A stretch of DNA of 52,685 nucleotides, filler included, from Jimgerdemannia flammicorona (lineage: Eukaryota): assembly GCA_003990765.1 (NCBI GenBank). It is 2 parts of 2 records of this genome, joined end to end, with 100 filler letters (N's around TTAATTAATTAA, not from the genome) between each part and the next. Parts side by side here need not be neighbours in the genome. Positions count along the whole stretch, not along the records: positions 26,395 to 52,685 come from RBNJ01000739.1; 1 more part is not named here. The stretch is one strand, 5' to 3'. The notes below the pieces were generated by a model, which ran no database searches, had not been told where the DNA came from, and saw only the letters and a program-made list of their open reading frames with translations. The stretch's first letter is position 1; every line of letters starts with the position of its first letter. The position numbers and the translations under genes are program-made. Shown piece after piece: positions 7,646 through 35,646 of the stretch.

Positions 7646-7971
7646 ATATAGTTGTGAACATAGTTCAAAATGCAGCAAAGTGGCCATTGCACTTAACACT
7701 TGTGCGTCTAACATTCATCGTGCAATATAACTACCATCTTAGATTAGTCAGTTTCAATCGCTTCCTACACCCTATCATGCACTTAAACATTCATGCAACG
7801 TAATCATACAATCCACCATCTTAGCTTAGTTAGTTTCAATTGCTTTCTGCACCCTACCTTAGCTAGCCCGAGCTCCAACCACATGCCCAAGAGTTAGGCA
7901 GTGGCCACACATTTCCCTCAACATACTCTAGCAATCATCATTAGTAATTCGTATTAATCAATTTCACGCAC
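7646..7971 (+). repeat. Ngaro repeat A1 (326 bp)
   Basis: Direct repeat of 12099-12424 (atatagttgtgaac...atttcacgcac). Contains an internal ~80 bp tandem duplication (aacattcat...ccatcttag...gtttcaat...caccct). Confidence 0.95.
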
Positions 7972-7988
7972 TATCTCTCAGATACATC

Positions 7989-9259: not shown

Positions 9260-10866
9260 TCTCGTGACCCCACTCCCATCTGACCCCCCAGCATGTCCAT
9301 ACCACCTTGGGGAGTGGCAATGAGCACTTCACACCCATCCAGACCAACTTCTCATTCAGTACCACTTAACAGGCCTATGTCAGGGTTACCTTCACGGCAA
9401 TCACTCCCATCCTGAGCTTCGTATCGACTACATATCTGACAATCTGGCATTAGCTTACCAATATCGCAACATCCTTTCTGCCAACATTCTTGCCGAACTT
9501 CAAGCCGGTCACTACTTAGGACCCTTTTCATCTCCCTCTGCATTACCAACTGAGTTTTGTCCCTTTCACAATGCTCCCCTAGGAGTTGTCCCAAAAAAGA
9601 ACTCTACCAAACTTCACACCATTCAACACCTGTCCTTCCCAGAGGGAGCCTCTGTAAATGATGGCATCAACCCAGAAGAGTTTTCAATTCAGTACCAGTC
9701 AATCCAGTCCATCCTCCAGCTACTCCTCACACTTGGCGCCACAGCTCTATTTTGGAAGGCAGATATTGCTGAAGCCTTTTGCATGATCCCCATCCACCGG
9801 TTTGACTGGGCTATACAAGGCATCTGCTGGCTTGGCCTTTTCTTCCTTGACATGTTTCTTCCATTCGGCCTTCACTCAGCACCATTCATATTCACATCTC
9901 TGATGGATTTATTTATATGGATTTGCATTCAGCAGTATAACCTTCCCAATTTGGGCTACTTTATGGATGACTTTATCTATGTCACATCACCCTCTACTGC
10001 TCAGTCTACATACTTGTGGTTTCACTCGGTTGCTGCTCACTTTGGTCTTCCCCTCAAAGCAGCCAAGGATATACCTCCCACACCAACTATTGAGTACATG
10101 GGCTTTCTCCTCGATGCCCCCAACATGACAATCAGCCTCCCACTTGAAAAACGTACATGCATCCTCTCTCTGCTCACAGACTGGCTTGTAATACCTCATC
10201 AGACTCATCGGCCATATCCTCGGTCTTACCACGATGCTCATTCACTACTGGGTCATCTCATGCATGTTGTCCAAGTCCTTCCAGATGGGAAAGTATTCTG
10301 TGATTCCATCATTCATTTCATCTCTATATGGAAACCACCCTATGCTGGGCAGCATCATCTATCTTCTCACCTGGCCACTGATCTTCAATGGTGGCAGGAC
10401 ATCTTATGCTCATGGACAGGTTGTCACCTGCTTTTCCACTCTGATTGGCAGGATTGTGGTCTATTCACAGATGCATCTGGAACAATTGGTGCCAGCGGCC
10501 TTCTGGGCCAACACTGGTGGAGCATTCGGTGGGCCTCTTCATTCAGCAACCAGAAGGGATATGATATTTTCTAGAAGGAAATGTTCACCATCTGGGTTTT
10601 GCTTGCATTGTGGGGTTCCTCCTTTCATCATCAGCATATCATCTTATGGTGCGATAGCCAACCCTGTGTTGAATTGCTAACCAGTGGTTGGGCATGATAC
10701 CACCCTCTCATCAACGATCTTTTATGATGCATTATCCTCTTATGTCTCAACAGAGGGTTTGACATCCAAGCTCAGTATATTCCTTCCTCATCTAACCCCG
10801 CCAACTCCCTATCTTGTCTTATCCATCTCCCCTCCCATCCCTAGGAACTACTTCCTACAACTGTAA
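9240..10866 (+). pseudogene. Ngaro ORF2: reverse transcriptase and RNase H
   Basis: VVPKK, HLSFPEGASVNDGI, KADIAEAFCMIPI, LPFGLHSAPFIF, YFMDDF. RNase H motifs LFTDASG, KEMF, WCDSQ. Start approximate. Confidence 0.95.
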
Positions 10867-10869
10867 CAT

Positions 10870-11800
10870 CCCCCTTTGGCTTCGCCATCAACTCAAGTCC
10901 TGTCTCTACCAACACTCTCACACCCACACTGGTGCTCTTCGACCTGGTACCAACTCCTTCTACTGCTTCCTAGGCTACTATGGCATTGATAATACCACTG
11001 CCTTTCCTCTTCATAATGACCTCCTCAGCTATTGGGCCCTATGGCTGGCCAACGATCAAAAGCCATATACCACCATCAAGAACTATTTCTATGACATCGC
11101 TGCTCATTAACTGGCCCACTGGCGAGGCCCCCCTCTCTACCATGCATCCTTACCCCTGTTCGACATGGTATTGAAATCCATTCAGCGCCACCCACCCCCC
11201 TCACACTCACTGGAATGCCTTCCTATTACTTGCCAATACTTGCAGCTTATTCATGCTACTCTCCCCCTTACTACACCTCATGGCACCACCATATGGGCAG
11301 CCACATGTACAGCCTTTTATGGTCTCATGCGAATCGGCAAGCTGACATCTCCTGACTACCTACAATTTAACTCACACTGGTAGGCATACAGGTGCCACCT
11401 TCGACGGCACTGGGACCCTACACTTTCCCAGCCCTTTTGGTCTCTACACCTCCCTTGTACCAAAACTGGTACCTCAGGTGATATATTTCTGGGGTTTTCA
11501 GGTGCCTTCAATTGCCCCTGTTCTGCAATTGACAATATGATCCACCTCTGCCCTGCCCGTCCCAAGGACCCCATCTTCTCCTTCAGTCCCACTCAACCCC
11601 TCTCTTGCTCAACATTCATCAAGGCCATTCGGGCCCCTTTAAGAGACACTCCACTAGCCACTGGAATTCATGATCATTCCTTCTGCATCAGCGGCACTAC
11701 TCTTCTTACATCGGCAGGATATCTGGATCACATCATTCAACTGGCTGGTCAGTGAAAGTCTATGGCCTTTCTGCATTACATCCAGCAACTCGACCAGATT
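10870..11800 (+). pseudogene. Ngaro ORF3: tyrosine recombinase
   Basis: WAATCTAFYGLMRIGKL (catalytic R region), CPCSAI, HDHSFCISGTT (from GHSFRIGG.T), IQLAGQ*KSMAFLHYI (from GRW.S....Y). Confidence 0.92.
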
Positions 11801-11956
11801 CTACCTCAGATGATAGTCACCTTGGCCGCACTTCCTCTACTCAACTACCAGCGGGCCATGGGTTTGGTGGGTGGTGGCCAAAAGGTATCCACAAGCGGTC
11901 AGCGGCACCAGCATTACATTTAAGAGCCTTGCCCACTTCCCAGGCCTGTGGTTCTT

Positions 11957-12097
11957 TGGCCTCTTCACATATGAATGCGATTGGCAGGCCTTCAGAAGTG
12001 TATACTTCCTTTGAGCCAAACCCATATCCCACATTAGATTCATTTTATATAGAACACTATTTATCTCATATTAGCCTCCTCATGCGTGGGACACTTT
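11957..12097 (+). repeat. Ngaro repeat B1 (141 bp)
   Basis: Direct repeat of 12465-12605. Confidence 0.93.
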
Positions 12098-12098
12098 G

Positions 12099-12424
12099 AT
12101 ATAGTTGTGAACATAGTTCAAAATGCAGCAAAGTGGCTATTGCGCTTAACACTTATGCATCTAACATTCATTGTACAATGCAACTACCATCTTAGATTAG
12201 TCAGTTTCAATCACTTCCTGCACCCTACCATGTGCTTAAACATTCATGTAATGTAATCATGCAATCTACCATCTTAGCTTAGTCAGTTTCAATCACTTTC
12301 TGCACCCTACCTTAGCTAGCCCGAGCTCCAACTGCATGCCCAAGAGTTAGGCAGTGGCCACACATTTCCCTCAACATACTCTAGCAATCATCATTAGTAA
12401 TTCATATCAATCAATTTCACGCAC
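12099..12424 (+). repeat. Ngaro repeat A2 (326 bp)
   Basis: Copy of 7646-7971, differing mostly by transitions. Followed by a 40-bp spacer containing AATAAA (12451-12456). Confidence 0.95.
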
Positions 12425-12464
12425 CCCTCCCACCCATCTCCCTTTGGAACAATAAATGTGCGCC

Positions 12465-12605
12465 TGGCCTCTTTGCATACAAATGCGATTGGTGGGCCTT
12501 TGGAAGCATATGCTTCCTTTGAGCCAAACCCATGTCCCACATTAGATTCATTTTATATAGAACACTATTCATCTCACGTTAGCCTCCTCATGCGCGGGAT
12601 ACTTT
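12465..12605 (+). repeat. Ngaro repeat B2 (141 bp)
   Basis: Copy of B1; forms the right terminus of the element. Confidence 0.93.
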
Positions 12606-13419
12606 ATATAAGTAAAATCAGCTATATTAGATTGGAAGACTATATTACCTTGAGATACCTAAGAGGTCAGATTGAAAAAGTTATCTAATATGAATTTTCA
12701 AAATAAAAAAAAATTGATATATACTAGTAACATAACATATGTGAGATTTAGATCATTATAATCTGATAATTAAAGCAGACTGATAAGAAATATGATAGAA
12801 AGCTGATATATAGCTGGACATATATCTAATTACTACTTTATTCTATATATCACTTATAGAAGTTGTTAAAGAACAATAAATAGATCAGTGAAGTCTAAGT
12901 TGATATAAAGAGACTTAATAGTTAAAAGGTAATATTAAATAGTAGTTAGTTAAAGCTAACATAAGGCCAAGCTATAGTTTTACTATATTAAAACTATTTC
13001 AGATATAGGCAGAATAATATCAGAAATATAATTATTATAATAAAGAGTATAGAATTAGAGAAAGTTGTATATATGTATTGTTCTGAAGAATATAAGTAGT
13101 ATATTATTTTTATCAGTCTGAACTATAGAAAGAAGTAATAATAGATAGAAGTATAGAATATAAATGATATCTATTACTATCAGCAATATCTGAGTATAGA
13201 GAATAAGATAATAGTAATTGGAGAGATCAGTGAGAGATAAAAAGAATATAGATAGATCCTGATGATAGAAAAACTCAAATATAGATGAAGAAGAAGAAGA
13301 AAAATCAGTGAGTAATAATATAATATAATACTAAAAGACAGAGATATAAAAATATGTTATACTGTTTTTTTATTTTCTTTTTATCATTATCTATTACTGA
13401 TATATAGTTTTATTACTAG

Positions 13420-15254: not shown

Positions 15255-18200
15255 ATATATATAGTAGTTGAAATTAATTTTGCTATATTTGTAATATATA
15301 ACTATAATGTGGATGTTAAAGTAGAGGTCAGGATAGATAAATCTATCTAAATCTCCTCATTATATTCTTTTTTGTCAAATTATATATCTTGTAAGATTAC
15401 TATATAATATTTATATAGATTCCAGAGTTGATATGTCTTACTAGAATACTCAAGAAACATATGCTTATTTATAAGAGGCAGGGGTGCTGTGGCCTAGTTG
15501 ATAATAGTATTTCAAATATTAGCATAAATGCAATTGTAGACTTTAGTAATTATAGCTGAGTATATATATGAGAGTTGTAATTTATTGTTTTAGTTTATTA
15601 TAGTTCTCTGTTTTGACATACTATATGTTTAGTATATATACTTCTGATCTTGATTATTAAGGTTCTATTTTTATATATATTATATTTTATGACTTTTAGT
15701 TGACTCAGCTTCATGATCTGTAACTTTAGTTATACTTAGCTTTATGATCTTACATATGATTTCTGAATTTATTCTGAGGGTGAGGTGTGGATTCAGTGGC
15801 TTGAAGGTTATATACTTACAACTCTTCTCTTCTTAGTATTTAATATCCTCATTGAGTTCTTCTAATTTAGTCTAATATTATTACATCAATTAAATGGTCA
15901 AAAGTTTAGTAATATCCTTTTTTTCTCAGAAACTAATATACTTATCATTCAGTTATCTAATATATTGAATTTACATATTAAAGGTCATTTTAATGCTATA
16001 TACTAGAAGTGATTCTGATGTTATTTACTACTGGAGAATTTTCTATAAGAAATCTTCTTAAATATCTATACTTCATTTTTCCCTAGTATATAATATAAAG
16101 AGAATATGCTATCTTTCAGTTTTGCTATTTTTCTAGAGAGTTGGTATTTCTTTTATCTTAATTTACTAAGAGTGTAGCTGAGTTTTCATTTTTATTTATA
16201 ATATTTATAAAGATGCTTTTAACATTATTCAGGAGAAATAATATATATATAGTATAGTAATAATAGATATTAGAGTATTTTAACTAGTTGTTTGAAGAAT
16301 TAAATTCTTGAACTAAATCAGTAGTATTCTGGAGGTTTGTTCTGGGTTCCTATATAGCATCATAGATTGAATAGCCTTTTTATTTGATAAGGTATTCTAA
16401 GTAATTCTTGTGGTCACATTTGTTGAGAATTTGTTCAACTTCATATTTCTTATAGTCATTAACAGTAATAGGTACTGGTGGTTTTATAGTTTAATTTGGA
16501 AATAGTTTGTCATCATTTTCACTATATTATTTGAGATATTAAACATTGAAGATTAGGTGAATCTTGATGATATCTGGTAGGGCTAGTTCATAGGATATTA
16601 GAGAAACTTGCACAATAACTTCAAATGGTCTAATAAACTTATTATATAACTTTGTAGAATGTCTATGCTTGAGATTATCAACTCAGTATCCTCAGATATC
16701 TAGTAGATCTTTTTCACTGATATTAAATATTTCTTCTTAATAGTGTTAGTTGATATATTGAGATTGTTGGTTTTGAGCTTAAGATAGGTTTTCAATTGCT
16801 ATTTAGCTTAAGTTATGTATTCAGAGTAAGAATTCTTCAATAACTTCAATAGTGGAGAGTTTATCTATAATTCTTATAAGAGTTAGAGGAGTGTTTGAAT
16901 TTTGTTCTATAATGGGATCATTTTAAGAGAAGCTTGTTTGCTTTTATTATTAGCAAACTTAATTCCAGTAAGATATTTATACTAATTATCTTATCTATAG
17001 AAAACATAGTTCCTTAGTATTTGCTTTAGAGTTTGGTTAATTCTTTTAGTTTAGCCATTAGTTTTAGAGTAAAAGACTGTAGATAGTACTAGCTTTATTC
17101 TAAGATATGAGTGTAGGGCTTTTCAAAAATAGCTAGTGAATTTCAATTCTTAGTTACTAATAATAATCTTAGGAAGACTATGATAGTAGAAGATAAGAGT
17201 ATAGTAATTTCAGATACTATTATAGTTGTAGAGATAGGTACAAAGTGGGTTTATTTGTTAAGATAATCTATAAAGATAATAATTACATTCTTTCTATTCT
17301 TAGTTTAGGATAGTTGTATAGTAAAGTCTATAGAGATTTGTTCTCAATTGACAGATAATACTGGAATAGAGTGAAGTAGTCTAGGTTTTATCAGAGTTAA
17401 GGACTTATTGTATTGGCAGATATCACAAGAAGTGATATAGATCTTTAACTAGTCTGCCAGACAGGGTCAGTAGAAGTTTTGGGAGATAACTTTATAGCAT
17501 TTGTCAAAACCTAGATATCCAGCTATAGAGACATTATGATATTTAAACAGAATAGTCCTTTAGAGGTCTTTGTTATTAGGAATATATAATCTATTCTTGT
17601 AATAGATAGTATTGTCCTTCAATTGGTATTGATAATACTAAGAGTGCTTGTCAATATTATTACTACTCAGAATTTCTTGAAGTGTCTTTATTATTATTAT
17701 ATACTGTGATAATTTATTCCATAATAGAATTAATAATCAAGGTGAGAGTTTGTATAACTTTTTTAATTAGAGGTCTAGAGATTGTATCAGCAACAATATT
17801 TTCTTACTAGAGTAGTATTGAATTTTAAAGTCAAAATAGGTGAGAACTTTTATTCATCTGGCTTGCTTTTGAGAAAGAGTAGTCTGGGTCTTTATATTGA
17901 TCAATAATTTGTAGTCTATTAATATAGTGAAGTATACTTCTTTAAAATATGAATACTATTTGACCAGAGTGTCTACAATGGCTAAAATTTTCTTCTTATA
18001 GATAGTATAGTTACTTTTGATATTATTGAACTTATAAGAATGATAGACCACAGGGTGTTCTTCTTGCATAAGTACTGCTCCAAGAGCTGGATCAGAGATA
18101 TCAGTAGTAACTTTATATAATAGGGCAGAATTTACTACTTAAAGTACTAGAGTGGTTATCAGAATATCTTTTAGAGCTTAAAAGGTTATATCTTATTCAG

Positions 18201-20880
18201 GTCTCTATTTAACAAAGTTGTTGAAGTCTTTTTCTTGCTTTGTGGTCCAGGGTTGGTTTTCTTTTTTACTATACTTAGTCAATTAAGTAAGAGTATTAGT
18301 AATCTTAGCAAAGTTCATAATGAATTACTTTTAATAGTTTGCTAATTCTTGAAATAACAGAAGGTCTTTTAGCATTTTAGATCTGAGCCATTCCTTAATT
18401 ATAGATATTTTTCTGGGATCTACTTTGATTCTATTTAAAGTAATAATATATGTACTAAAGAAATTGAATTCCTTTAGAAGAAATTCACATTTGCTGAGCT
18501 TTACAAAGAGTTGGTTTTTTTTTCAGAGTTTCAGTAGTACTAGTTCAAAATGTTCAAGATATTTCTTAAGGGTTTTACTGAAGATCAGAATGTCATCAAT
18601 GTAGATAATAATAAATTTATCTGGATATGAATATAGAATAGTATTCATCAGAGTCTGAAAGATTGTGAAAGTATTAGTTAAACCAAAAGACATAACTAAG
18701 AACTCAAAATATCCATAGTGAGTTCAGAAGGCAGTTTTGTAGATATCTTCTTCTTTTATAATAATTTGTTAGTAATCATTTCATAGGTCAAAAGAGCTCA
18801 TAATTTATAGATTGATAAGCCTATTAAAGATTTCATAAATTCAGAGTAGTAGGCAATAGTTCTTGATAGTCAATTCATAGAGATCTCAGTAATCAATATA
18901 TATCTAGAGATCTCCTAATAAAGAGAACTAGTGTACTATATAGTAATATACTAGGTCTAATGAATTCTTGTTTTAGGAGTTTATCAATCTCTTTCTTGAG
19001 TATATCAATTTCTCTAGGAGACATATAGTAGATTGACTTAAAGGTTGGCTTGGTATCTAAAATAGTCTTGATTGTATAGTCAACTACTTATTGACTGATA
19101 GATCTTTGGAAAGTTTCTTTGAAAATATATCTTGAAATTTCTGAAGTAGGGGTCTGATATAACTATTAACTTTGAAAAAGTCTTTCCCAAGATTCTCAGA
19201 TTCTCCTTTGGATGAATATATGGAGTACCAAAGAGAGGATATTTCTTCACTAATTTCTTAAGTTGTAGTTTGTTGATATAAGTGATCTTTGGGCCAGAGT
19301 CACTACAGCTAAGTGGATTTCTTTTGTCTTATAGTTTGAAATTGTGGTATTCTTTCTTAATGGTCAAAGAATGATTCACTTAATCTATTATGAGGTTTTC
19401 TTATTTTAATCATAGTGTTCTAAGAATGATCTCATTGTCTGAGAGTAGTATAATTTAGAGAGTAATATATACTCAGTAGTCACTAATTCTAAAAAATAGG
19501 TTACAGACTTTCTTTCTAATAATATGTGAGGTTCAATTAGCAGTAGTAACTACTTGGGCTTATTATACTGGAGAGATCAGGACTTTAAGTCTATTGACTG
19601 TTTCTTTATTGATAAAATTGTCTAAGGTACTGCTGTCTATTATAATCTTAACAGAGGCTCAATTAATAAAAGCTTATAAGATAAGCAGTTTGTCTGATTT
19701 AATGATAGTAATTTCAATTATAAGAGGCTTCCTTCTGTTAGCTCTTCATTAGGCTAACTTATTGATATATGAGAAAAAATCATTGATTATTTAAGAAGAG
19801 TATATTCTAATACCATGAGGGTATCAGCCACTAGATACAAATCTATCTTTAATTTTTCTGTAGAATTATTCCTTCTTATTTGCAGTCAGTTGAGCTGGGG
19901 CTTTATTTGATAAGTCAAATTCTTTAAATTCTCAGATAGTAAATAGTAGTTCAGAGACTTCCTTAACTATCAGGGTCAACTCAATTTTCTTAAATAGGAT
20001 TTGAACAATATAGTAATTAATAGAGATTTTGAATAGTGTCTAACTATGATTCTTAATGAGAATAATGATTTCATCTGTATAATCTTTGTCAATAACTCCT
20101 ACTTCTACTAAGAGTTTTTTTAATACTAGACTGCTGCAATAACATATTCCTCTAACATGTTCTTCAGGAATTTGAATACTGAATTCTGTATAGACTTACT
20201 TAATTTCTCAATTAGAAATAGTAGCTTTTTCAGTTATATATAGATCATAACTAGCTGTCTTTTGGCTTCCTTTAGTAGAGGCCATAGCTGTTATCCTTAA
20301 CTTGAAAAAGTCTAGTGTTTGGTAGTCAGGTTTTTCAGGTGATATACAGTAGTGATAGTTGCTCATATTGTAGTTTGAGATTTTTGATTAGAGTAGATAT
20401 TGGCCATATATTCTCTCTTTTTGTAATAGAAGTATGCTCTACTTCTTTTGAGTTTATTTCTTTCCCCTTCTGTGAGTTTCTTGAAGATACTCAGCTAGGT
20501 AGGTTCAGAATTACAGAGTGTCCAAGAAGTAGATGTAGTAGGAGCTCTGAATGATTCATACTTAAGTTCTTCTTTCTTAATCTACAATTTTTCCTTATTA
20601 GGTCTATGAAATTGTTTTCAAGACAGAATTGGTCTAGCTATTAGAATTTGCTTGACCATAGTTTTGATTCTAATTAGGCACCTTTGTTGGTAATTATAAC
20701 CAACCAGATATTCTTATTCTTAGATCTTTCTTATGAGCCATTTTGGTAGTATATTGAATAAATAGTCTACTTTTATATTATTTTATACTTTGTTATTGGT
20801 AATATATCCTAGGCCAACAGTGTTCAGAAGGGACTCAAGTTTTGAATAGAAGGTTTCAAATTCTTCCTTATTATATATAT
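15255..20880 (-). mobile_element. Chromodomain-bearing Ty3/Gypsy element, family C copy 1 (gag-dUTPase-PR-RT-RH-INT-chromodomain, partial 3' LTR)
   Basis: RT YIDDILI (~18585-18605), RNase H and integrase motifs, chromodomain at 16305-16450, purine tract at 15821-15830, LTR start TGTAAG at 15820. Gag is interrupted at 20880 by family B. The LTR is truncated on the left near the Copia remnant. Confidence 0.92.
16305..16450 (-). pseudogene. Integrase C-terminal chromodomain
   Basis: KYEVEQILNKCDHKNYLEYLIK*KGYSIYDAI*EPRTNLQNTTDLVQEF matches the chromodomain pattern YEVE.I....YL.KWKGY....TWEP..NL. Confidence 0.9.
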
Positions 20881-22396
20881 TGTCACGTAGTGGTCACTGA
20901 GTCCTTCAAATATGCCAGATTCTCTTCAAGGTATATCTCTTAGACTAACTCAAGTTGTTATAAGCAAGTTCTTATTGGAGTGCCTTCCCAAGGTCTTATA
21001 GTCCTCAAACTTCTTATCTTTAACTATCTTGTTATCTCTTAGATTCTTGCAAGGAAGTATATGTAAGTGAAACTGGAACTGACTTTATTTTAGAGAAAAT
21101 AAGAGAGGTATTTATACAAAATATAATTCAATGATTGCTAAGATATAAAGCTAAATATAAATTCCAATAACTAAAACTACTAAGTTCCAGGGTCGGTACT
21201 GATGGTTGTACAGGTTCAGGATGCTGGTATTATTTAGTGTCACATCAAAATGCTAGTGCTAGAACAATTTCGTGTCACCTCAGAATATCAGTGCTGGCAT
21301 TATCCAGTGTAACAAAGAACTTAGAGCAGAAATTTCAGGACCATGGGGGCTTCTTCCTCATCATCTTCATCACTGAAGGAGATGAGGTCTGTGAATTCAT
21401 CATTTTCACATACTTCATTATGTGTCTTGCATATGTTGATGTCACATGGGATGATGTCATCACCAATGATGTCATCACATTCAGCTGTGGTAGGAAAATT
21501 GAGAACAAGATCTGGAGCTCTCCAGTCTATGAGGTTCTCTTCCACAAAATAGGAAACAAATGTGGGGTCTTGGGGAGGTCTAACCTGGATGCTTGGGCCT
21601 TGGAATACTGAGACCAATCCTTGTAGGAATTGGTCTGGGTTGTCCTGAAGGATCAGATACCAGAAGTCTTCTATTTCTTCACTGTTGAGAGTGATAGTGG
21701 ACTGGGCTTCTGTAGCCACCCTGGCTTCTAGTATATTGATACAGTGGGATGATAGGTCTCTGAAGTCTGAGACTCTAACATACTCCAAGTTGGGGATCAA
21801 CCATGGTGCATGCCTGAAGATCTGATGGATCTTCTTAGCTGTTCTTGTTTCGCATATATCCATGGGAGTGGCATCTTGTAGCTCTTGGGTGCTGGCCTGT
21901 GGGAACTCCCAGTAGAGGAGGTTTCCTATTTTGTACTCCTGCCACATTTAGAGGCATTCAGTAGCAATGGTGATCCTTGTTTCCATTTCACGGCAGTAGA
22001 GAATGAAGTGATAAGAGTCTGCAGTACTCAGGTTGACACTAGGAGTCCTTCTTGAGTGGGTCCTCATGGCTCTTCTGATGTCTTAGAACATCCTTTCCTT
22101 GACCGAGATACCTTGGTGATTCCTTGACCTTGAGGTTTGGCAGGCAGCAGACATTTTGTTTATGGTAAGTCTTTGAGCTATTTTGGGATTGGTGGTTCTT
22201 GTTGGTTGCTGCTACTGCAGTTCCTTGATCCTTCTTTTATATTCTTCAGGATGCTTGTGCTATGGTCACAATGACTCACAGTTGGTCATCATTGCTCATC
22301 TTGTATGCTGTATAATCTTCTTGTACTCTGATCTGGTGGCTTGCAAGGAAAGGCTGTCTCCTGTGCTGATGTTATTATTCTGGGGTCACTATTACA
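20881..22396 (-). repeat. Family B 3' LTR (~1.5 kb) containing a U3 ORF
   Basis: Minus strand begins TGTAAT right after the purine tract AGGAGGAAGA (22397-22406) and ends GTGACA at 20881. TATAAATA at 21109-21116, AATAAA at 21084-21089. Matches 49117-50583. The 5' boundary rests on the purine tract only. Confidence 0.75.
21321..22154 (-). pseudogene. Family B LTR-encoded ORF (~277 aa, unknown function, acidic C-terminus)
   Basis: One frame from MSAACQTSRS (aacaaaATG at 22154) through the 208-aa ORF 21321..21947. Its two internal TAA codons are CAA in the second copy (~50305 and ~50170). Confidence 0.8.
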
Positions 22397-26294: not shown

Positions 26295-26394
26295 NNNNNN
26301 NNNNNNNNNNNNNNNNNNNNNNNNNNNNNNNNNNNNNNTTAATTAATTAANNNNNNNNNNNNNNNNNNNNNNNNNNNNNNNNNNNNNNNNNNNN
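26295..26394. other. Assembly gap with an artificial all-frame stop linker
   Basis: N-run, TTAATTAATTAA (26339-26350), N-run. Adjacency across it is not guaranteed. Confidence 0.9.
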
Positions 26395-26446: not shown

Positions 26447-28510
26447 TGTAAGAGGGTTGCTTTTTTAGAGTAACTGTTACGTAGTTCTAGAAGAGTTTCT
26501 GGAAGTTCTGGATATTCTAGAAGACTGTTTTCTTTATAGTCAAGCTCAATTTTGTATAGAGTACATCCTCTACACTTATTGATTTCAAGATCAGGTTGAT
26601 GTCTCAACCAAAGTCCTTTTTTGGACTAGTTCTGGATGTTCAGGATTTTCCGTATTTCAGGAAGTTCAAGAACCTAAGACCAGCTTAGTTGAATTGGCGT
26701 ATTGCTGTAGACAATACCTAATTAGAAAATTTCATGATGGGGTTAGGAGTGGACCTAATGGGGAGCAGATTTACTTAAGAGTGGTTTGTGGGTTATTTGA
26801 ATAGGTTTATTCACTATTCATGATATTGCTATACTAGGAGTAGTTGTGTGAGGGGATATTGTGGGGAAGTATTCAAGAATGTTCTTGTGTGTTTGAGTCT
26901 GAGATTCTGAGGTCTGGGGGAGGGGGTATTTATACTAGTGAGGGGCTATCTGGACTATATTAGATATTGGATGTAGCACTAAGTGCTTTACTGAGTTGGA
27001 ATGCAGTCATATAGTATAAGTGTGATCTGACATGTCAAGAGATCGTCTGACTGCTGAGTTAGTTCACAGTCATATTGTATAAGGCTAATCTAACTATACT
27101 ATGACTGCTAGGCTATTTATGGGTTTAGGCGCTGTCTGGGTAGTCCTTGATGACATCACCATCAATTGCATCATCTCTGATAAAGTAGTCATCTAGGAAG
27201 AGTGGTTCACAGATTACTTCTCCTTGTTCACTGAGGTAATAATACATTGAAACTTCATCACCATCCCACAGGATAGCATCATCTGTCTCATATGCTGGAT
27301 ATGGTGTTGGTGGGTGAAGGAGGGGTACATTATCTTCACTTTCATCAGATTTGCTATCTGCATACCTTCTGTAGGTTATAGCACTATGAGTCACAGGGTT
27401 GTAGTAAGCTGGTGGCTGTGGTTCATGTCACTCATATTCAGATGGTGGGGTGGTTGGTTCAATCTCAAGGGTTGTCTGAAGATACAGGTTATGTTCTCCA
27501 GTCTCTTCATTGTAGTTGAAGTAATCAGGGGTGAATGCTGGTTGGTATTCATGCTAGTGATCATTGTCCCAATAAGTCTCGTATGCTGTTATGAATTATT
27601 GTAAGTTTATCAGCAAGATTGGCGGTGTGATCAGGGTTGGCAGAGATCCTTGGCTAGAGGTCATATTGGTATCAGAGGGATCATTGTCTTCTGCTTTGTC
27701 TTCATCGAAGTGGATTATATTGTAGATGTCCTTCATGATGTATCCAACTTGGGGCATTTGTAGGATGTGATCATTGGGGTGTGGGAAGGTTCTGTCTGTA
27801 GTTTCGATGTACTCGAGGTACTTCTGGTTGAGTTCTTGTATCATGTCATTGATTTGACCATAGGACAGGGTAGTAACCATTTTGCTGGTAGTAACTCAGA
27901 GGTGGGGAATAATGGTACTGTACTCATAGAAGAGTTCTCGATGTTTGCAGGCGATGAGCTTCTGGTGTTGAGACATCTTGGTAATGTCTGTATCGTGGTA
28001 GTGTTTGACCATGTCTTTCAGGAGGCAGCCGATCTGGTAGTAGCTTGAGATTTGTCCAATTCGGTGGGCCTCGCTAAGCATGTTCAGAGTATTTCATTGG
28101 GCTTCCACAAAGTAGAGGGGTGCTAGGCTATAGATATTCATGAGGGGCAGAGGGAGTGTGACTCAGTTGACAATGGCATTCCAAATGTCAGCATGGATAT
28201 GGGTATAGATCTCGGTGGTCATGTTTGTGTGTTTAGAAGTTGTGGTTATTGTTTGTTTTGGTTCTCTGATTTGATGTGTCTCAGTGCTCAGTATATATGC
28301 ATTTGGTCCTAATTGGTAAGATTCCATTTGTGTAAATCTTGTGTTCTGTGACTTCGTATTGACTCAGCTTTGTATGCTGTAACTTTGGTTTGACTCAGCT
28401 TTGTGATCAAGCAGGTGATTTCCAGATTTGTTCAGAGGTCACGTGTGATTTCAGTGGCTTGTTCAGAGGGTAACATGTAATTTTGGTAACTTGGAGGTTG
28501 TGTGCTTATA
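26447..28510 (-). repeat. Family C 5' LTR (~2.06 kb) containing a U3 ORF
   Basis: Termini TATAAG (from TGTAAG)...CTTACA, followed by the PBS. TATAAATA at 26927-26934. Colinear with 33605-35646. Confidence 0.9.
27125..28222 (-). pseudogene. Family C LTR-encoded ORF (~365 aa, unknown function)
   Basis: ORF-track pieces 27896..28081, 27596..27880 and 27125..27394 share one frame from the ATG at 28222. The stops at 27896 (TGA) and 27596 (TAA) are CGA and CAA in the copy at 34301-35389. Confidence 0.85.
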
Positions 28511-28527: not shown

Positions 28528-28728
28528 ATGGTATATATCTGAAGATCTGATAAATCTTCTTAGCTATCCTTACTTCTTATATATTCATATGTAGAAGTGG
28601 TATCTTATAACTCTTGGAGACTAGTCTATGAGAACTCCTAGTAGAGAAGGTTTCTTATTTCATACTCCTATCATATTTGGAGATATTTGATAGCAATAGT
28701 GATCCTTGTTTTCATCTCACAGTGATAG
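28528..28728 (-). repeat. Fragment of a third family B LTR/U3 ORF
   Basis: Aligns by eye to ~21802-22000. Cut by the family C LTR starting at 28729. Confidence 0.8.
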
Positions 28729-30210
28729 TGTAAGAGAGTTGCTTTTTTGGATAACTGTTACATAGTTCTGGAAGGGTTTTCTAGAGGTTCTGGAAGACTG
28801 TTTTCTTATGGTCAAGATCAATTTCATATGGAGTATGTTCTCTATACTTATTGATTTTAAGTTCGAGTTGATGTCTCAACCAAAGTCCTTTTTTGGACTA
28901 GTTCTGGATGTTCAGGATTTTCCATATTTCAGGAAGTTTAAGAAACTAAGACCAGCTTAGTTGAATTGGTGTATCACTGCAGACAATACCCAATTAGGAA
29001 ATTTCATGATAGGGTTAGGAGTGGGACCTAATGGTAAGTAGATTTACTTAAGAGTGGTTTGTGGGTTATTAAATAGGTTTATTCGCTATTCATGATATTA
29101 CTATACTAGGAGTAGTTGTGTAAAGGGATATTGTGGGGAAGTGCTCAGGAGTTGTTATGTTCGGATTGTTGAGGTCTGAGATTCTGAGGTCCGGGAGAGG
29201 GGGTATTTATACTAGTGAGGGGCTATCTGGACTATACTAGATATGGATGTAGCACTAAGTGCTTTGCTGAGTCGGAATGCAGTCACATAGTACAAGTGTG
29301 ATCTGATACATATATCAAGAGATCGTCTGACTGCTGAGTCAGTTCACAGTCACATCGTACAAGGCTAATCTAACTATACTATGACTGCTAGGCTATTTAT
29401 AGGTTTAGACACTATCTAGATAGTCTTTGATGATATTACTATTAATGACATCATCACTGGCAAAGTCTGAGCAGTTTTCTAACTTCTGACATCATTAGTT
29501 TCAAAATGTCATTACTTCTATCTCTTGCAAGATTAAGGCTATCCTTGGTGGCAGTGGTTGTACAAGAATAACAGGTCTTGGTTCTCTTTTTTTTTGGTCT
29601 GCTGGTGCATTTGTGAGGACTGGCCATTCTTGTCTAGGGCAAGGACTCCCAATGTTATGGCTTTGGGTTTGAACCTCTCGGAAATGATATTTTCTATAAT
29701 CCGAGGCAATTTCTAGTAGTAATATCTGTCACATGGATGGCTTGAGATTGGTTTCAATGATGTCAGCTTTCTTGAGTTCAGATGAAGTGTCTGTCACTCT
29801 CCAATGGAGGTGATACAGATAGAGCAAATGGAGTTGTTCAAATGTGTTTTGCTTCTGCTAAGTAATGAGATCTTGTATAGTTACAGTGTATCTTAGTCTT
29901 GAGTTGATAAGTATAGTTCATGAACCTTTTGGTAAATGGGATAGGGTTCTTCTTGTCTCAATTTGAGTTTGGTACTTTCAGTTTCCTTTTGTAATAGTAT
30001 AGTACACCAAACTAGTTATAGCAGTTCAGAGTCAGTCTTATGGTTGTAGTACTTCTTCTAGTATTCTTGTATCTTGGTGGTGGGTTCTCATGCTTGCTGG
30101 CATATTTCGTGTAACCAGATGATCTCTTGTTTTGTAGTCTCACATGTGGTTTCCAAATTAGTTCTGAGGATACCATATAATTTTAGTGGCTTGGAGGTTG
30201 TGTGCTTACA
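28729..30210 (-). repeat. Family C 3' LTR variant (~1.48 kb) with an alternative U3 cargo
   Basis: TGTAAG...CTTACA termini. Homologous to the other family C LTRs over 28729-29455 and ~30145-30210 only. Confidence 0.85.
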
Positions 30211-33200
30211 ACTCTCCCCTTCTTAGCTTTTGATGTCCTCATCGGGACCTTCTAATTTGTTCTGGTGTTGTTGTATCATTTGGATGATTCTTGTGGCTGT
30301 GTTTGTTGAGGATTTGTTCAACTTTGTATTCTTCTTGGTTATTAATAATGACAGATACAGGTGGTTCTGTGGTTCAGTTCAGAAATGTGTCTTGGGCTTT
30401 CTGGAGTAGTGGTCTGACATGGCTGTCAACTTTTGAAAAATCTTCTTCAGAGTTCTCGAGTTCTCCTTTGGATGGACGGATGGAGATGGCAAAGAGAGGA
30501 CATTTCTTGGCCAATTTCTTAAGTTGTAGCTTGTTGATGTGAGTGATCTTTGGTCCAGGGTCACTAGAATTAAGTAGGTCCTTTTCACCTTACAGTTTGA
30601 AGTTGTGGTGTCCTTTCTTGATGGTCAGAGAATAGTTTACCTAATCAATCATGAGGTTCTCTTGTTTCAGCCATGGGGTTCCAAGGATGATTTCATTATC
30701 AGGGAGTGGTACAATCTGGAGGGTAATATATACTTGGTAGTCACCAATTTGGAAGGGTAGATTGTAGACTTCTTTGCTAATAACATGTGAGGTTCCATCG
30801 GCTGTAGCAACTGCTTGAGTTTGCTGTATTGGAGAGATGAAGACCTTGAGTCTATTGGCTGTCTCTTCATTGATGAAGTTGCCTAAGGTACTACTGTCTA
30901 TCATAATCTTGACAGGTACTTGGTTGACAAAAGCCTTAAGTGTAAGTAGTTTGTCTGATCTGATAGTGGTGATTTCAGTTGTAGGACTTTTCTTTCTATT
31001 GATTCTTCTTTGAGCCAGTTTATTGATATAAGAGAAGTAATCATCAATCATTTGGAAAGAGTACATTCCAATACCATGAGGGCATCGGCCACTTGGTACA
31101 TATCTGTCTTCAATCTTCTTGTAGAATTGTTCTTCTTTGCTCATAGTAGGTTAGGCTGGGGCCTTGTTCGATGAGCCAAATCCTTTGGATCCTCAGATGG
31201 TGGGCAGTAGTTCAGGGACTTCCTTGACTGTCAGGGTTGACTCGATTTTTTTGAATAGGATCTGGGCAATGCAGAAACCTATGGAAATCTTGAAGGGTAT
31301 CCAACTATGGTTTCAGATGAGGACAATAATTTTGCCTATGTAATCTTCATCAATGACTCCTCCTTCTACTGAGAGTCCTTTTAATGCTAAGCTGCTGCAA
31401 CAGCATATTCTTCCAACATGTTCTTCAGGGATTCAGATACTGATTCCTGTGTAGACTTGCTTGACTTCTCAGTTGGAAACTGTAGCTTCTTCGGCTGCAT
31501 ACAGGTCATATCCAGCTGCTTTTTGACTTCCTTTGGTTGGGGCCTTGGCAGTTTGTCTTAACTTGACAAAGTCTAATATTCTGGTGGTCAGGTTGTTGAG
31601 GTGGTACAGAGTGGTAACAGTTGCTCATGTTGCTGTTCAAGGTTTTCAGTTAGGGCAGACACTGGCCATGTGTCCTGTCTTTTGGCAATAGAAGTATGCT
31701 CCACTTCTTTGAAGTTCATTCCTTTCTCCTTTAGTGAGTTTCTTGAAGATACTCAGCTGGATAGGTTCATGATTTCTTTGGTGTCTATGAGGTGGATGTG
31801 GAGGGAGCTTTAGATGCTTTATGCTTGGGTTCTTCTTTCTTGGTCCAAGTCTTTTCCTTATTGTTAAATTATCTTTGGTGCAGAATTGGTCTAGCTGTTA
31901 GGATTCACTTGACCATAGTCTTAATTCTTGCTAGGCACCATTGTTGGTGATCACAACCAACTAGGTGGCCTTGTTCTTGGATTTTTCAAGTAAGCCATTC
32001 AGGTAGTATATTGAATAAATGGTCTGCTCTTGTACTATTTCGTGCTTCATCATTGGTAATATATCCTAGGCCAACAGTGTTCAGGAGTGACTCAAGTTTT
32101 ATACAGAAGGTTTCAAATTCTTTTTCGTCATATACATCAAATTTGAGGTTGCAGAGTTTTACTTGAGATTCAGCAATCATGGTTTTGCTATGGTATTGAG
32201 CAATCATGAGTTGTTTGAGTCCAGGGGCTGCAGGATGGGCTCTGTATCCTGGGGCATTGTTTGCTGTATTCTGAGCAACTACTGCAGGTCAGGTATCCTA
32301 TGTGAGGGGTTTTTCAGGAAGGGTTCACCACCATTCTTTGACAGGTCCTTAGAAGAATGTAACAACTTGGTGGACATAGGCTGTAGTGGTAGCAAAGAGT
32401 TGTTCCAGAGTGTGGTCTTGATTATTTGTCAGAATATAGTTAGCAACTCACTCATTGGTCCATTGATTGGCTTCAAAGTTAGTGTCAACTACACTAATGA
32501 AACTTTGGACTTTCTGTGCAGTACTATTGAAGATAGGTAGGCCCAGATTTTTGGTAGGTCAGGTCTGTTCAGCTAATGTAGTAATGGTTGCTGCCATTAT
32601 GGCTACCTGGGCTGTGAGGTCTAGAATCTGTTGGTTTGCCATATTGTTTGCTAGAGACAGTTGAACTACTGGTAGTGGTGTTACTGGTACTACTTGAGGT
32701 ACTGGTGCAGAGTGTGAGGGTGTTCTTTGAGTCTGTATAAGTTGCTGAAGTAGTAGTTGTGAGTCTGGAGTGAGGGCTTGATAGATAACTATTTGTTGCT
32801 GTGTAGGTGTATTCTGTTCTGATGAAGGTACTTCTCCTTCACTGGTGTATCTAGGATCAAATTCACTGAGATACTCCTCCTTCTGTTCGGTTTGGTCCCT
32901 ATGTAATTGGGTTTGCTTGATATTGAAGTAGACAGAATCAGTTGTATATCTGATTTCAGATGGACTTAATTCAAAGTCAAGTTCAGGTTCAGTATTGGTT
33001 TCAGATTCAGGTAGGACTGTAGCAGGGCCTGCTTCAGGTTCGGGGTCAGGTAATTGATGAAGAGTTTCTCTTACTTCTTCTTTAAGAATATGGTGGGCCT
33101 TGCTGTTCTGGAATTGGTAGTATAGTGCAGTCTTGGTCCTGGTATGGTGAAAGTCGGTAGAGTTGAGCCACTTAGCTATGGAGGCTTGGGCTTTGTAAGG

Positions 33201-33604
33201 AACTAAGGCTAGAAAGACTGCTGCTGGTTATCCTAGATTGCTCAGATTTATGGAGCTGACAAAACTCTTGTTGAGAAGGGTAAAAAAGGCTTCTATAAGA
33301 CCTTCTTCATCTTGACTTGCTGGGTGTAGTGCAAGGAGTTCGGTGAATAGGGTTTCACCTATTTGCTGATTTAACTGAAGTATTTCTTTCTTCGAATGAA
33401 GTTTGTCCCACTTGTTGCAGGTGTGGAGGTCAAATTGTCCTTGTATGTCAGGTTCAATTCTCTCCAGATTGTCAGATGGTTCAGGATAAATTTCAGTTCA
33501 GAGGTTGGGCTTTATACTAACTTGTAGGAATTTGCAGAGGAGTTTGTAGTGGGGTGAGGAAGTATCTTGAAGTGAAATTGGATTATAAACCACTGCTACC
33601 AAGT

Positions 33605-35646
33605 TGTTAGAGAGTTGCTTTTTAGGGTAACCATTATGTAGTTCTGAAAGAGTTTTCTGGAAGTTCTGGATGTTCTGGATGTTCTGGAAGACCATTTTCT
33701 TATGGTCAAGATCAATTTTATATAGAGTACATCCTCTATGCTTATTGATTTCAAGTTTGGGTTAGAGTCTCAATCAAGTCCTTTTTCAGACTAGTTCTGG
33801 ATATTCAGGATTTTCTGTATTTCAGGGATTTCAAAAAACTAAGACCAGCTTAGTTGAATTGGCATATCACTGCAGACAATACCCAATTAGGAAATTTTGT
33901 GATGGAGTTAGGAGTGGGACCTAATGAGGAGTGGATTTTACTTAAGAGTAGTTTGTGGATTATTAAATAGGTTTATTTACTATTCATGATATTGCTATAC
34001 TAGGAGTAGTTGTGTGAAGGGATATTGTGGAGAAGTGCTCAGGAGTTGTATTCAGATTGTTCAAGTCCTTCGAGTCTGAGATTCTGAGGTCTGGGGGAGG
34101 GGGTATTTATACTAGTGAGGGGCTATCTGGACTATGCTGAATATGGATATAGCACTAAGTGCCTTGCTGAGTCAGAATACAGTCATGTAGTACAAGTGTG
34201 ATCTGATATGTCAAGAGATTATCTGACTGCTGAGTCAGTTCACAGTCACATCGTATAAGGCTAATCTAACTATACTATGACTGCTAAGCTATTTATAGGT
34301 TTAGACACAGTCTTTGATGACATCACCATCAATGACATCATCTCTGATGAAATAGTCATTTAGGAAAAGTGGTTCACAGATTACTTCTCCTTGTTCGCTA
34401 AGGTAATAATATATTGAAACTTCATCACTATCCTACAGAATAGCATCATCTGTCTTGTATGCTGGATAAGGTGTTGGTGGGTAAAGGAAAGGTGCATTGT
34501 CTTTGCTTTTATCAGATTCACTGTCTGCATATCTTCTGTAGGTTACAGTACTATGAGTCATGGAATTGTAGTAAGCTGGTGGCTGTAGTTCATGCCACTT
34601 GTACTCAAGTGGTAGAGTGGTTGGTTTAATCTCGAGGGTTGTCTGGAGGTACAGGTTGTGTTCTCTGGTCTCTTTATTGTAGTTAAAGTTATCAGAGATA
34701 AATACAGATTAGTATTCATGCCAGTAATCATTGTCCCAATAAGTCTTGTATGCTGTTATGAATTGTTGTAAGTTCATCAGCAAGGTTGGTGGTGTGATCA
34801 GGGTTGGCAGGGATCCTTGGCTTGAGGTCATGTCAGCATCAGAGGGATTATTGTCTTCTACTTTATCTTCATCAAAGTGGATTATATCATAGATGTCCTT
34901 TATGGCATATCCGACTTGGAGCATTTGTAGGATATGATCATTGGGGTGTGGGAAGGTTCTGTCTGTAGTTTCAACGTACTCGAGGTACTTGTGGTTGAGT
35001 TCTAGTATCATGTCATCAATTTGGCCATAGGACAGGATAGCAACCATTTTGACTGTAGTAACTCGGAGGTAGGGGATAACAGTGCTATACTTGTAGAAGA
35101 GTTCTCTGTGTTTGCAGACAATGAGTTTCTGGTGTTAAGACATCTGGGTAATGTCTGTATCATAGTAGTGTTCGACTATGTCTTCCAGGAGGTGGCCGAT
35201 CTGGTAGTAGCTTGAGATTTGTCTGATTCGGTGGGCCTCATTAAGCATATTCAGGGTGTTCCATCGGGCTTCTACAAAGTAGAGGGGTGCTAGACTATGG
35301 ATATTCATGAGGGGCAGAGGGGGTGTGGCTTGGTTGATAATGGCATTCCAAATGTCAGCACAGATATAGTTGTAGATTTCAGTGGTCATATTTGTATGTT
35401 TGAAAGTTGTGGTTTGTTGTTTGTTTTAGTTCTCTGTCTTGATGCATCTCAGTGCTTGGTATATATGCATTTGGTCCTAATTGGTAAGATTCCGTTTGTG
35501 TGAATCTTATGTTCTGTGACTTCGTGTTGACTCAGCTTTATGCACTATGACTTCAGTTTAACTCAGCTTCATGATCAAGCAGGTAATTTCCAGATTTGTT
35601 CAGAGGTCATGTGTGATTTTGGTGGCTTAGAGGTTGTGCACTTACA
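33605..35646 (-). repeat. Family C 5' LTR (~2.04 kb) containing a U3 ORF
   Basis: TGTAAG start at 35646, CTAACA end at 33605, then PBS. Colinear with 26447-28510. Confidence 0.9.
34301..35389 (-). pseudogene. Family C LTR-encoded ORF, second copy (~362 aa)
   Basis: MTTEIYNYICADIWNAII... in a single frame to a stop at 34301, with an in-frame 9-bp deletion near the end. Stops at 35135 and 34709 are CAA in the other copy. Confidence 0.85.

What the first reader, a model, noticed from the sequence alone, without database searches (positions are those of the whole stretch)
29405..30180. Swapped U3 cargo: same LTR ends, different insert that looks integrase-derived
Seen: this LTR matches other family C LTRs in its first ~65 bp and from 29455 to its end, but ~700 bp of unrelated sequence replaces the promoter and ORF. 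One frame reads TNLETTCETTKQEIIWLHEICQQA*EPTTKIQEY*KKYYNHK...KLKLRQEEPYPI, resembling the family B integrase C-terminus (TNLDLTWRWVDAEIRRLHQIRKKAEDYITKSQ...KGPF). A second frame (ATG 30103 to 29405) runs in frame into the shared end DDVINSNIIKDYLDSV, but has 10 stops (7 TGA), which is only weak support. Inference: U3 acts as an exchangeable cassette, possibly filled by RT template switching from the 3' region of another element, with the junction at the paired CRE-like motifs.
Basis: partly seen in the sequence, partly recalled or inferred. Interest (0 to 1): 0.75.

Follow-up and report, generated by a model that had tools for sequence, protein, structure and literature searches.

The report
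Retrotransposon end carrying another transposon's piece
In a fungal genome, one family of jumping genes lost the extra gene inside its terminal repeat and took up a dead piece of an unrelated jumping-gene family in its place; the hybrid end then spread to hundreds of sites, mostly on copies that need a helper to move.

Summary
Real, and the donor is found. The LTR at 30210-28729 (minus strand, "LTR-B") keeps the family's first ~70 bp and its TATA/R/U5 half. Between them, 680 bp replace a U3 ORF that was under selection. About 620 bp (30134-29514) match the integrase C-terminus, 3' UTR and polypurine tract of a different Ty3/gypsy lineage in the same genome ("family E", 68% identity, E 9e-85). 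The window's family B gives no match. LTR-B has at least 574 copies and forms matched pairs with target-site duplications (7 of 7). All sampled copies share the same deletions, so this was one capture. Of 49 consecutive 3' LTRs, 36 were type A and 13 type B, with no third type; 11 of the 13 B sit on pol-deleted elements. The piece is non-coding: 8 of the 10 stops in the proposed fusion frame are fixed. The junction motifs are not decayed CREs. Shared R/U5 variants show the captured U3 later recombined repeatedly with type A. Template switching is likely but not shown.

The parts
28729..30210 (-). LTR-B, 1482 bp, TG...CA; 3' LTR of the window element
   Evidence: at least 574 diagnostic-pattern matches genome-wide, control 0
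30135..30210 (-). Family C LTR start (integrase attachment end) kept in LTR-B
   Evidence: 76-85% to type-A start over 60-70 bp
29838..30134 (-). Captured last ~100 codons of the family E integrase (GPY/F-type C-terminus) up to its stop codon; decayed, with stops and small indels
   Evidence: 45% amino-acid identity over 87 aa to the family E integrase (57% over 90 aa in old copy L108), versus weak local matches to family C and family B integrases; HMM 12.7 bits; alignment
29514..29837 (-). Captured family E sequence between integrase stop and 3' LTR, ending in an altered remnant of E's polypurine tract (about 29526-29515)
   Evidence: colinear to L141:3718-4044; E's LTR starts at L141:4043; E's tract-plus-TG form seen in 23 of 28 E copies and in none of the listed B patterns
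29460..29513 (-). ~54-bp linker of unresolved origin (possibly the diverged start of the donor LTR)
   Evidence: similarity to E LTR start not significant, p about 0.12
28729..29459 (-). Shared half: last ~17 codons of the type-A U3 ORF, TATAAAT at 29211, AATAAA at 29083, R and U5 (R/U5 limits inferred from these motifs)
30211..30224 (-). Family C polypurine tract before LTR-B
   Evidence: sequence; 1012 tract-plus-LTR-start pattern matches
30211..33604 (-). Internal region: PBS (TGGTAGCAG), gag with zinc knuckle, dUTPase, protease, then a deletion of RT-RNase H-integrase at about 30385 and a chromodomain remnant (30386-30287)
   Evidence: Pfam; comparison with the old full-pol copy at 15460-20865; same layout in B-type elements elsewhere
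33605..35646 (-). LTR-A, 2042 bp, 5' LTR of the window element; the ancestral U3 type
   Evidence: at least 1622 diagnostic-pattern matches
34301..35389 (-). U3 ORF of type A (~360 codons, unknown family, 3 stops in this copy): the gene that the capture removed
   Evidence: no stop shared by half of 54 copies in this frame versus 33 and 14 in the others; shared transversions 20/9/3 at third/first/second positions; one public homolog, 57%; bounds
26447..28508 (-). Second type-A LTR followed by a PBS, then an assembly gap; a separate element

Best explanation
LTR-B is a recombinant LTR made once, long ago. SHOWN: a chromodomain-type Ty3/gypsy family (C) lost about 1.23 kb of U3, including most of a selected U3 ORF. 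In the same orientation it gained about 620-680 bp from the 3' end of a distant non-chromodomain Ty3/gypsy lineage (E or a close ancestor): integrase tail, 3' UTR, polypurine tract. The attachment end, TATA, R and U5 stayed, so the LTR remained usable. The piece decayed as non-coding DNA and was copied to hundreds of sites, mostly on a 6.36-kb non-autonomous element (LTR-gag-dUTPase-protease, no RT/RNase H/integrase). INFERRED: the capture was a double template switch by reverse transcriptase during minus-strand synthesis onto a co-packaged E RNA and back (about 60%). The B elements are mobilised in trans by type-A elements and keep swapping R/U5 with them at strand transfer. The lost U3 protein is not needed in cis. 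The window's own element, with LTR-A at 5' and LTR-B at 3', is not a mobile unit but a later hybrid of two copies.
For: Donor: LTR-B positions 83-697 align to family E at 67-70% (best E about 1e-92); all 30 loci match, as do 13 of 13 longer stretches. No match to family C pol, E 0.23 to family B. E differs from C in domain order, lack of a chromodomain, PBS, and about 30% RT-RNase H and integrase identity. Single origin: 0 of 71 B copies versus 27 of 28 E copies keep a 24-nt segment lying between direct repeats; 9-nt and three 1-nt deletions are also shared. Non-coding: B-versus-E differences are near even over codon positions (26/21/27; strict 10/9/15 old, 17/14/16 young). Mobility: B at both ends in 12 of 17 fetched regions; TSDs in 7 of 7 readable B/B elements, 5 exact and 2 with one C/T change; LTR pairs 93.5-94.9% identical in 4 pairs. 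Link to pol loss: 36 of 36 A versus 2 of 13 B 3' LTRs follow the integrase-chromodomain end (p 2.7e-9). Later exchange: 15 of 15 older B share one R/U5 haplotype found in 1 of 37 A, while younger B share 9 haplotypes with A. Both LTRs of one element carry the same haplotype, including the rarer ones in L071 and L075. Type A is ancestral: B keeps the ORF's last codons. Contigs from other public runs bridge both junctions (X2 record 22, X11 records 14 and 16).
Against: Junction microhomology is not significant (p about 0.08 at 5', 0.12 at 3'), so template switching is not shown. The best identity to any E copy is only 70-75% in aligned columns, with 5% transversions against 0.3-0.9% within families, so the true donor may be an unsampled sister or ancestor of E. 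The 54-bp linker is unexplained. Type-A autonomy rests on 1.5 kb of integrase-chromodomain sequence upstream and on 8.3-8.6 kb spacing of A-pattern hits; whole A elements were not read. The first 700 bp of the internal region did not separate A-linked from B-linked copies. Five of seven LTR pairs carry the commonest haplotype, so only two pairs test pre-integration mosaics well. The assembly is fragmented (35,354 contigs), so some mosaics may be assembly chimeras.
Confidence: 0.62

Rival explanations
1. Same single capture, but made at DNA level: an E element inserted into family C's U3 and was trimmed by two deletions, or a break in the U3 was patched from a chromosomal E copy. The product was then amplified by retrotransposition.
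For: The window and loci are full of nested insertions. Junction microhomology is weak. Differences lean towards C>T and G>A in B (105 of 158 in old B), which fits capture of an already decayed copy. E and C have different PBS sequences, which may hinder co-packaging.
Against: It needs two deletions, one ending within about 10 nt of the donor's polypurine-tract/LTR boundary. No intermediate with more E sequence was seen among 71 B copies. The C>T lean is also expected from repeated cycles of decay and copying.
Confidence: 0.28
2. U3 is a freely exchanged cassette with many cargo types, and this is one of several.
For: The captured U3 is linked to 9 R/U5 haplotypes shared with type A. One divergent type-A start was seen (L165).
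Against: Only two U3 types among 49 consecutive 3' LTRs; all B copies descend from one event. The sample is 49 of 1012 matches and the pattern misses LTRs with altered starts.
Confidence: 0.06
3. The insert encodes a functional integrase-tail peptide or a fusion ORF that replaces the U3 protein.
For: In older B copies the integrase tail reads in one frame and scores up to 30.6 bits. One frame meets the old ORF end in phase.
Against: 8 fixed stops in the fusion frame. The integrase frame has stops in 98-100% of young copies at two codons and 5.6 stops per old copy against 1.0 in E. No clear third-position bias against the donor.
Confidence: 0.03
4. Local rearrangement or misassembly.
For: The window element has unlike LTRs and no TSD, and the assembly is fragmented.
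Against: At least 574 copies, matched pairs with TSDs, and junction-bridging contigs in other runs. Misassembly could explain only the A/B pairing of this one element, not LTR-B.
Confidence: 0.01

Closest known systems
Ty1/2 hybrid LTRs of Saccharomyces cerevisiae (PMC3511429, passages read)
   Same: A fungal LTR retrotransposon subgroup founded by inter-family recombination in the LTR and then amplified.
   Different: Ty1 and Ty2 LTRs are nearly identical, so that exchange is homologous and LTR for LTR. Here internal sequence (integrase tail, 3' UTR, polypurine tract) of a lineage with about 30% RT identity entered U3 without clear homology.
RT-linked recombination, U3 versus R/U5 mosaics (review PMC6894440, parts 1-3 of 7 read); LTR swapping between autonomous and non-autonomous partners in soybean (Du et al. 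2010; title seen in that reference list only)
   Same: The later spread of the captured U3 over several type-A R/U5 haplotypes fits intermolecular first-strand transfer between helper and dependent elements.
   Different: The review treats exchange within a family ('clan') and names homology and co-packaging as barriers; the founding event here crosses lineages.
Modular or chimeric non-autonomous LTR retrotransposons of sugar beet (PMC13570524, passages) and recombinant centromeric retrotransposons of grasses (PMC4079200, passages)
   Same: Non-autonomous or recombinant families built by reshuffling parts across families and then amplified.
   Different: Plant cases; the passages read describe exchange of LTRs and internal regions, not foreign coding sequence replacing a gene inside U3.
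Fungal chromodomain Gypsy elements with dUTPase, e.g. PosPlaTy3-3 and -5 of Postia placenta (PMC2864245, passages)
   Same: Family C has dUTPase at the N-terminus of pol and a chromodomain; family E has dUTPase between protease and RT.
   Different: No clade placement was done here; the passages read do not mention an ORF or a captured piece inside the LTR.
Transduction and additional ORFs of LTR retrotransposons (PMC7264820, passages); MMTV sag and HIV nef in U3 (recalled)
   Same: Capture of foreign sequence by a retroelement; a gene lying in U3.
   Different: The cargo is from another retrotransposon, sits inside the LTR, is non-coding and reached hundreds of copies; the review says transduced ORFs are usually in one or a few copies.

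Membership tests
LTR retrotransposon LTR (LTR-B) | TG...CA ends, polypurine tract before the 3' copy, PBS after the 5' copy | tested here: met
LTR retrotransposon LTR (LTR-B) | Matched pairs flanked by 5-bp target-site duplication | tested here: met
   7 of 7 readable B/B elements; the window's own A/B element and L069 fail (0 of 2)
Ty3/gypsy chromodomain type (family C) | PR-RT-RNase H-IN order with C-terminal chromodomain | tested here: met
   old copy 15400-20900: RVP_2 (weak, E 0.069), RVT_1, RT_RNaseH, Integrase_H2C2, SH3_Tf2-1, Chromo
Ty3/gypsy chromodomain type (family C) | RT phylogeny within a named chromovirus clade | not tested
   no reference tree built
Ty3/gypsy non-chromodomain type (donor family E) | gag-PR-RT-RNase H-IN, no chromodomain, own LTR pair and PBS | tested here: met
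   Pfam on L144; 5'/3' LTR matches; PBS
Integrase C-terminal (GPY/F-type) region | Profile match | tested here: met
   custom profile 12.7 bits in the window copy, up to 30.6 in older copies; direct match to E integrase. Pfam gives nothing for the window copy and only E 0.075 for L088. The name GPY/F is recalled.
Non-autonomous LTR retrotransposon | Lacks RT/RNase H/integrase in a shared deletion yet has many TSD-flanked copies | tested here: met
Non-autonomous LTR retrotransposon | Mobilised in trans by the type-A partner | not testable with these tools
   inferred from shared PBS, ends and R/U5 haplotypes
RT template-switch recombinant | Homology or microhomology at both junctions | tested here: inconclusive
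   p about 0.08 and 0.12 against block shuffles
Exchangeable U3 cassette system | Several independent cargo types between conserved ends | tested here: not met
   two types in 49 consecutive 3' LTRs
CRE (TGACGTCA) junction motifs | CG, or both decay products TG and CA, at the motif centre across copies | tested here: not met
   never CG or CA in 97 LTRs at either motif

The most novel reading that the evidence does not exclude
RNA of two distant Ty3/gypsy lineages with different primer sites was co-packaged, and reverse transcriptase wrote the donor's integrase tail and polypurine tract into the other family's U3. This made a natural knock-out of a conserved, unexplained U3 protein. The knock-out thrived almost only as a dependent element (11 of 13 pol-deleted, against 0 of 36 for the intact U3). 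That would mark the U3 protein as a trans-acting factor that self-sufficient copies need and parasites borrow; the erased donor tract would reflect selection against a second plus-strand start inside the LTR.
Probability: 0.25. Interest if true: 0.62.

Novelty: new variant of a known kind. Interest (0 to 1): 0.4.

Why it matters
It is a well-resolved case of sequence crossing between distant retrotransposon lineages into the LTR itself, with donor, breakpoints and later history readable in one genome. It shows that an LTR tolerates replacement of most of U3 if the attachment end, TATA, R and U5 survive. It also gives a natural deletion allele of the unexplained U3 ORF of this fungus, which bears on whether that protein acts in cis or in trans. 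Recombinant and non-autonomous LTR families are well known, and the cargo has no sign of function, so this extends known biology rather than overturning it.

Tried and rejected
Pfam on the window cargo: no relevant hit. tblastx of the cargo against the window: no match to family B or any pol. Family B as donor: rejected. Two other integrase families in the genome (L190, L191) are only 55-57% like E in the integrase and gave no match to LTR-B. The idea that the window element was a B/B copy whose 5' U3 was later replaced: one shared rare state, but divergence is even along the shared half with 8 transversions in 714 nt, like unrelated copies. Diagnostic sites in the first 700 bp of the internal region: none found. 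Homology of the type-A U3 ORF to the U3 ORFs of E or family B: not significant (p 0.14, 0.12). The type-A ORF was not compared with the structure-and-feature atlas, so its fold stays open. Whole type-A elements were not read. Sequencing runs: no RNA holder listed; a run guessed to be RNA had high contig depth at 28901-29168, which cannot show expression. Literature searches with no paper holding the required terms; searches listed nothing on foreign integrase sequence inside an LTR. These cover only open-licence papers and preprints; no supplements were read, and Du et al. 2010 could not be read. Rows left out: the two partial hits were not counted as full copies, 2 of 20 stretches were integrase loci, not LTR samples; the skipped list row C247:32281 was added.

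Full report
Setting. The window is a field of decayed retrotransposons with strong CpG loss. The genome is fungal: 88 matches to the Zn2Cys6 family PF00172. On the minus strand, 35646-28729 is one element. It reads: a 2042-bp LTR (type A), PBS, gag, dUTPase, protease, a deletion of RT-RNase H-integrase at about 30385, a chromodomain remnant, polypurine tract, and a 1482-bp LTR (type B). An older copy at 15460-20865 keeps RT, RNase H, integrase and chromodomain.

LTR-B shares its first 60-70 bp and its last 731 bp with type A; the 680 bp between are unrelated to A. Both quoted frames are present, and the second has 10 stops, 7 TGA. The TATAAAT (29211) and AATAAA (29083) lie in the shared half, so the core promoter was kept.

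It is multicopy and was mobile. The cargo found 39 other full-length copies at 91-93% among the 40 candidates scored. A diverged copy found 39 more at 84-87%. A 35-nt junction pattern matches 574 times, control 0; the type-A pattern 1622 times. Of 17 regions fetched around B hits, 12 have B at both ends. All 7 B/B elements with both ends readable have a 5-bp TSD, 5 exact and 2 with one C/T change. Four LTR pairs are 93.5-94.9% identical with 0-3 transversions. Contigs from other public runs bridge both junctions; one of these runs could be the source sample. The window's own A/B element has no TSD and 8 transversions in 714 nt between its LTRs; L069, the other A/B case, also lacks a TSD. These two are later hybrids or assembly chimeras.

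The cargo is integrase-derived, and the donor is in the genome. A profile from the last 150 residues of 49 public relatives of family B's integrase scores the window frame 12.7 bits; 1000 shuffles reach at most 6.8. Older B copies read in one frame and reach 30.6 bits. Searching the genome with one of those public integrases gave a family, E, whose 3' region aligns to LTR-B positions 83-697 at 67-70%; all 30 loci match, as do 13 of 13 longer stretches. Against the window cargo, E gives E 9e-85, family B 0.23 and family C pol nothing. The match runs from the last ~100 integrase codons through the 3' UTR to the polypurine tract and stops where E's own LTR begins (L141:4043). E is gag-PR-dUTPase-RT-RNase H-IN without a chromodomain, has another PBS, and is about 30% identical to C in RT-RNase H (against a decayed copy) and integrase. 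It has at least 116 copies by pattern. That the two PBSs suit proline and initiator-methionine tRNAs is recalled, not tested.

One event, then neutral decay. None of 71 B copies keeps a 24-nt segment that 27 of 28 E copies have, lying between direct repeats; a 9-nt and three 1-nt deletions are also shared. Differences from E fall near evenly on codon positions (26/21/27). The proposed fusion frame has 8 stops fixed in 98-100% of 41 copies. The integrase frame carries 5.6 stops per old copy against 1.0 in E. E's tract-plus-TG form is in 23 of 28 E copies and in none of the B patterns listed. B is only 70-75% identical to the nearest E copy, so the capture is old or the donor was a sister of E.

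What was lost. The type-A U3 holds an ORF of about 360 codons. No stop is shared by half of 54 copies in that frame, against 33 and 14 in the others, and shared transversions fall 20/9/3 on third/first/second positions. It has one public homolog (57%) and no Pfam family. B keeps its last ~17 codons, which makes A the ancestral state. Earlier notes of this scan describe such U3 ORFs in this genome; the selection test above is my own.

Not a general cassette, but a recombining one. A pattern for the polypurine tract plus LTR start matches 1012 times. I read the first 49 rows: 36 type A, 13 type B, no third type. All 36 A follow the integrase-chromodomain end; 11 of 13 B follow the pol-deleted region (p 2.7e-9). 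In the shared half, 15 of 15 older B LTRs carry one R/U5 transversion haplotype that is in 1 of 37 A; the 44 younger B carry 11 haplotypes, 9 of them shared with A. The two LTRs of an element agree at these six sites in 7 of 7 pairs, two of them with rarer haplotypes. This fits repeated U3-versus-R/U5 exchange at first-strand transfer, as reviewed in PMC6894440 (parts 1-3 of 7 read); gene conversion in master copies is not excluded.

Junctions. The 5' junction lies where the type-A repeat and the donor both read close to AAAC.AGTCACAG, but the similarity is not significant (p about 0.08). The 54 bp after the donor tract are not clearly donor LTR (p about 0.12). The paired motifs at the 3' junction are TGATGTCA, part of the old ORF, and never show CG or CA in 97 LTRs, so they are not decayed CREs.

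Mechanism. Most likely a double template switch during minus-strand synthesis onto co-packaged E RNA (about 0.6). In favour: same orientation, an end at the donor's tract/LTR boundary, a slippage-type deletion, and the family's later recombination. A DNA-level route (nested insertion with two deletions, or templated repair) remains at about 0.3. Because U3 is copied to both ends, one event fixed the cargo in both LTRs of every descendant. Dependence on type-A helpers, and a trans role for the U3 protein, are inferences.

Comparison. Known parallels are Ty1/2 hybrid LTRs (PMC3511429, passages), chimeric non-autonomous families in sugar beet (PMC13570524, passages), recombinant grass centromeric elements (PMC4079200, passages), fungal dUTPase Gypsy elements (PMC2864245, passages) and transduction (PMC7264820, passages). 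PMC7175516 (passages) only names the Ty1/2 hybrids. In searches I found no report of another lineage's integrase tail and tract replacing a gene inside U3; these cover open-licence papers and preprints only.

Verdict. A real, well-supported new variant of a known kind: cross-lineage capture into an LTR, amplified on a non-autonomous derivative, with no sign that the cargo has a function. Interest 0.4.

Noticed in passing
L141:4043-6370 (family E LTR) and window 21321-21947 (family B LTR): Both LTRs also carry a U3 ORF; the E and B proteins are clearly related (score 155 against shuffles 35 +/- 5), while the family C ORF is not significantly related to either.
   Followed up: partly
window 30385: The pol deletion joins the protease side to the chromodomain side at a short shared ATTTC-like stretch, judged against the decayed old copy. 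A second gap of about 500 bp relative to that copy lies at 30281-30287.
   Followed up: partly
window 28528-28728: A 200-bp piece of the family B LTR plus a T-run lies between LTR-B and the next type-A LTR, whose start reads TA instead of TG and has a ~31-bp duplication.
   Followed up: no
window 35530-35600 and type-A LTR starts in L160-L189: Type-A U3 begins with tandem ~29-bp units containing TGAGTCA (an AP-1/Gcn4-type site, recalled), variable in number; type B lost them.
   Followed up: partly
window 28901-29168: One run guessed to be RNA had far higher contig depth just downstream of the TATA box than elsewhere; contigs cannot show expression.
   Followed up: no
L087, L092, L094, L097, L198, L066: A minority of B LTRs follow the integrase-chromodomain end, so B also exists on pol-bearing backbones: either the original state or back-recombinants.
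   Followed up: partly
L144:1756-3276: Family E has a long in-frame stretch with Cys/His clusters between protease and dUTPase that has no Pfam match.
   Followed up: no
window 26295-26394: Assembly gap (N runs around TTAATTAATTAA) joining contigs C738 and C739; the finding lies wholly in C739.
   Followed up: yes
window 7646-12610: A GC-rich, less CpG-depleted element on the plus strand with split terminal repeats (7646-7971/12099-12424 and 11957-12103/12465-12610) and long ORFs, a DIRS-like layout by recall.
   Followed up: no
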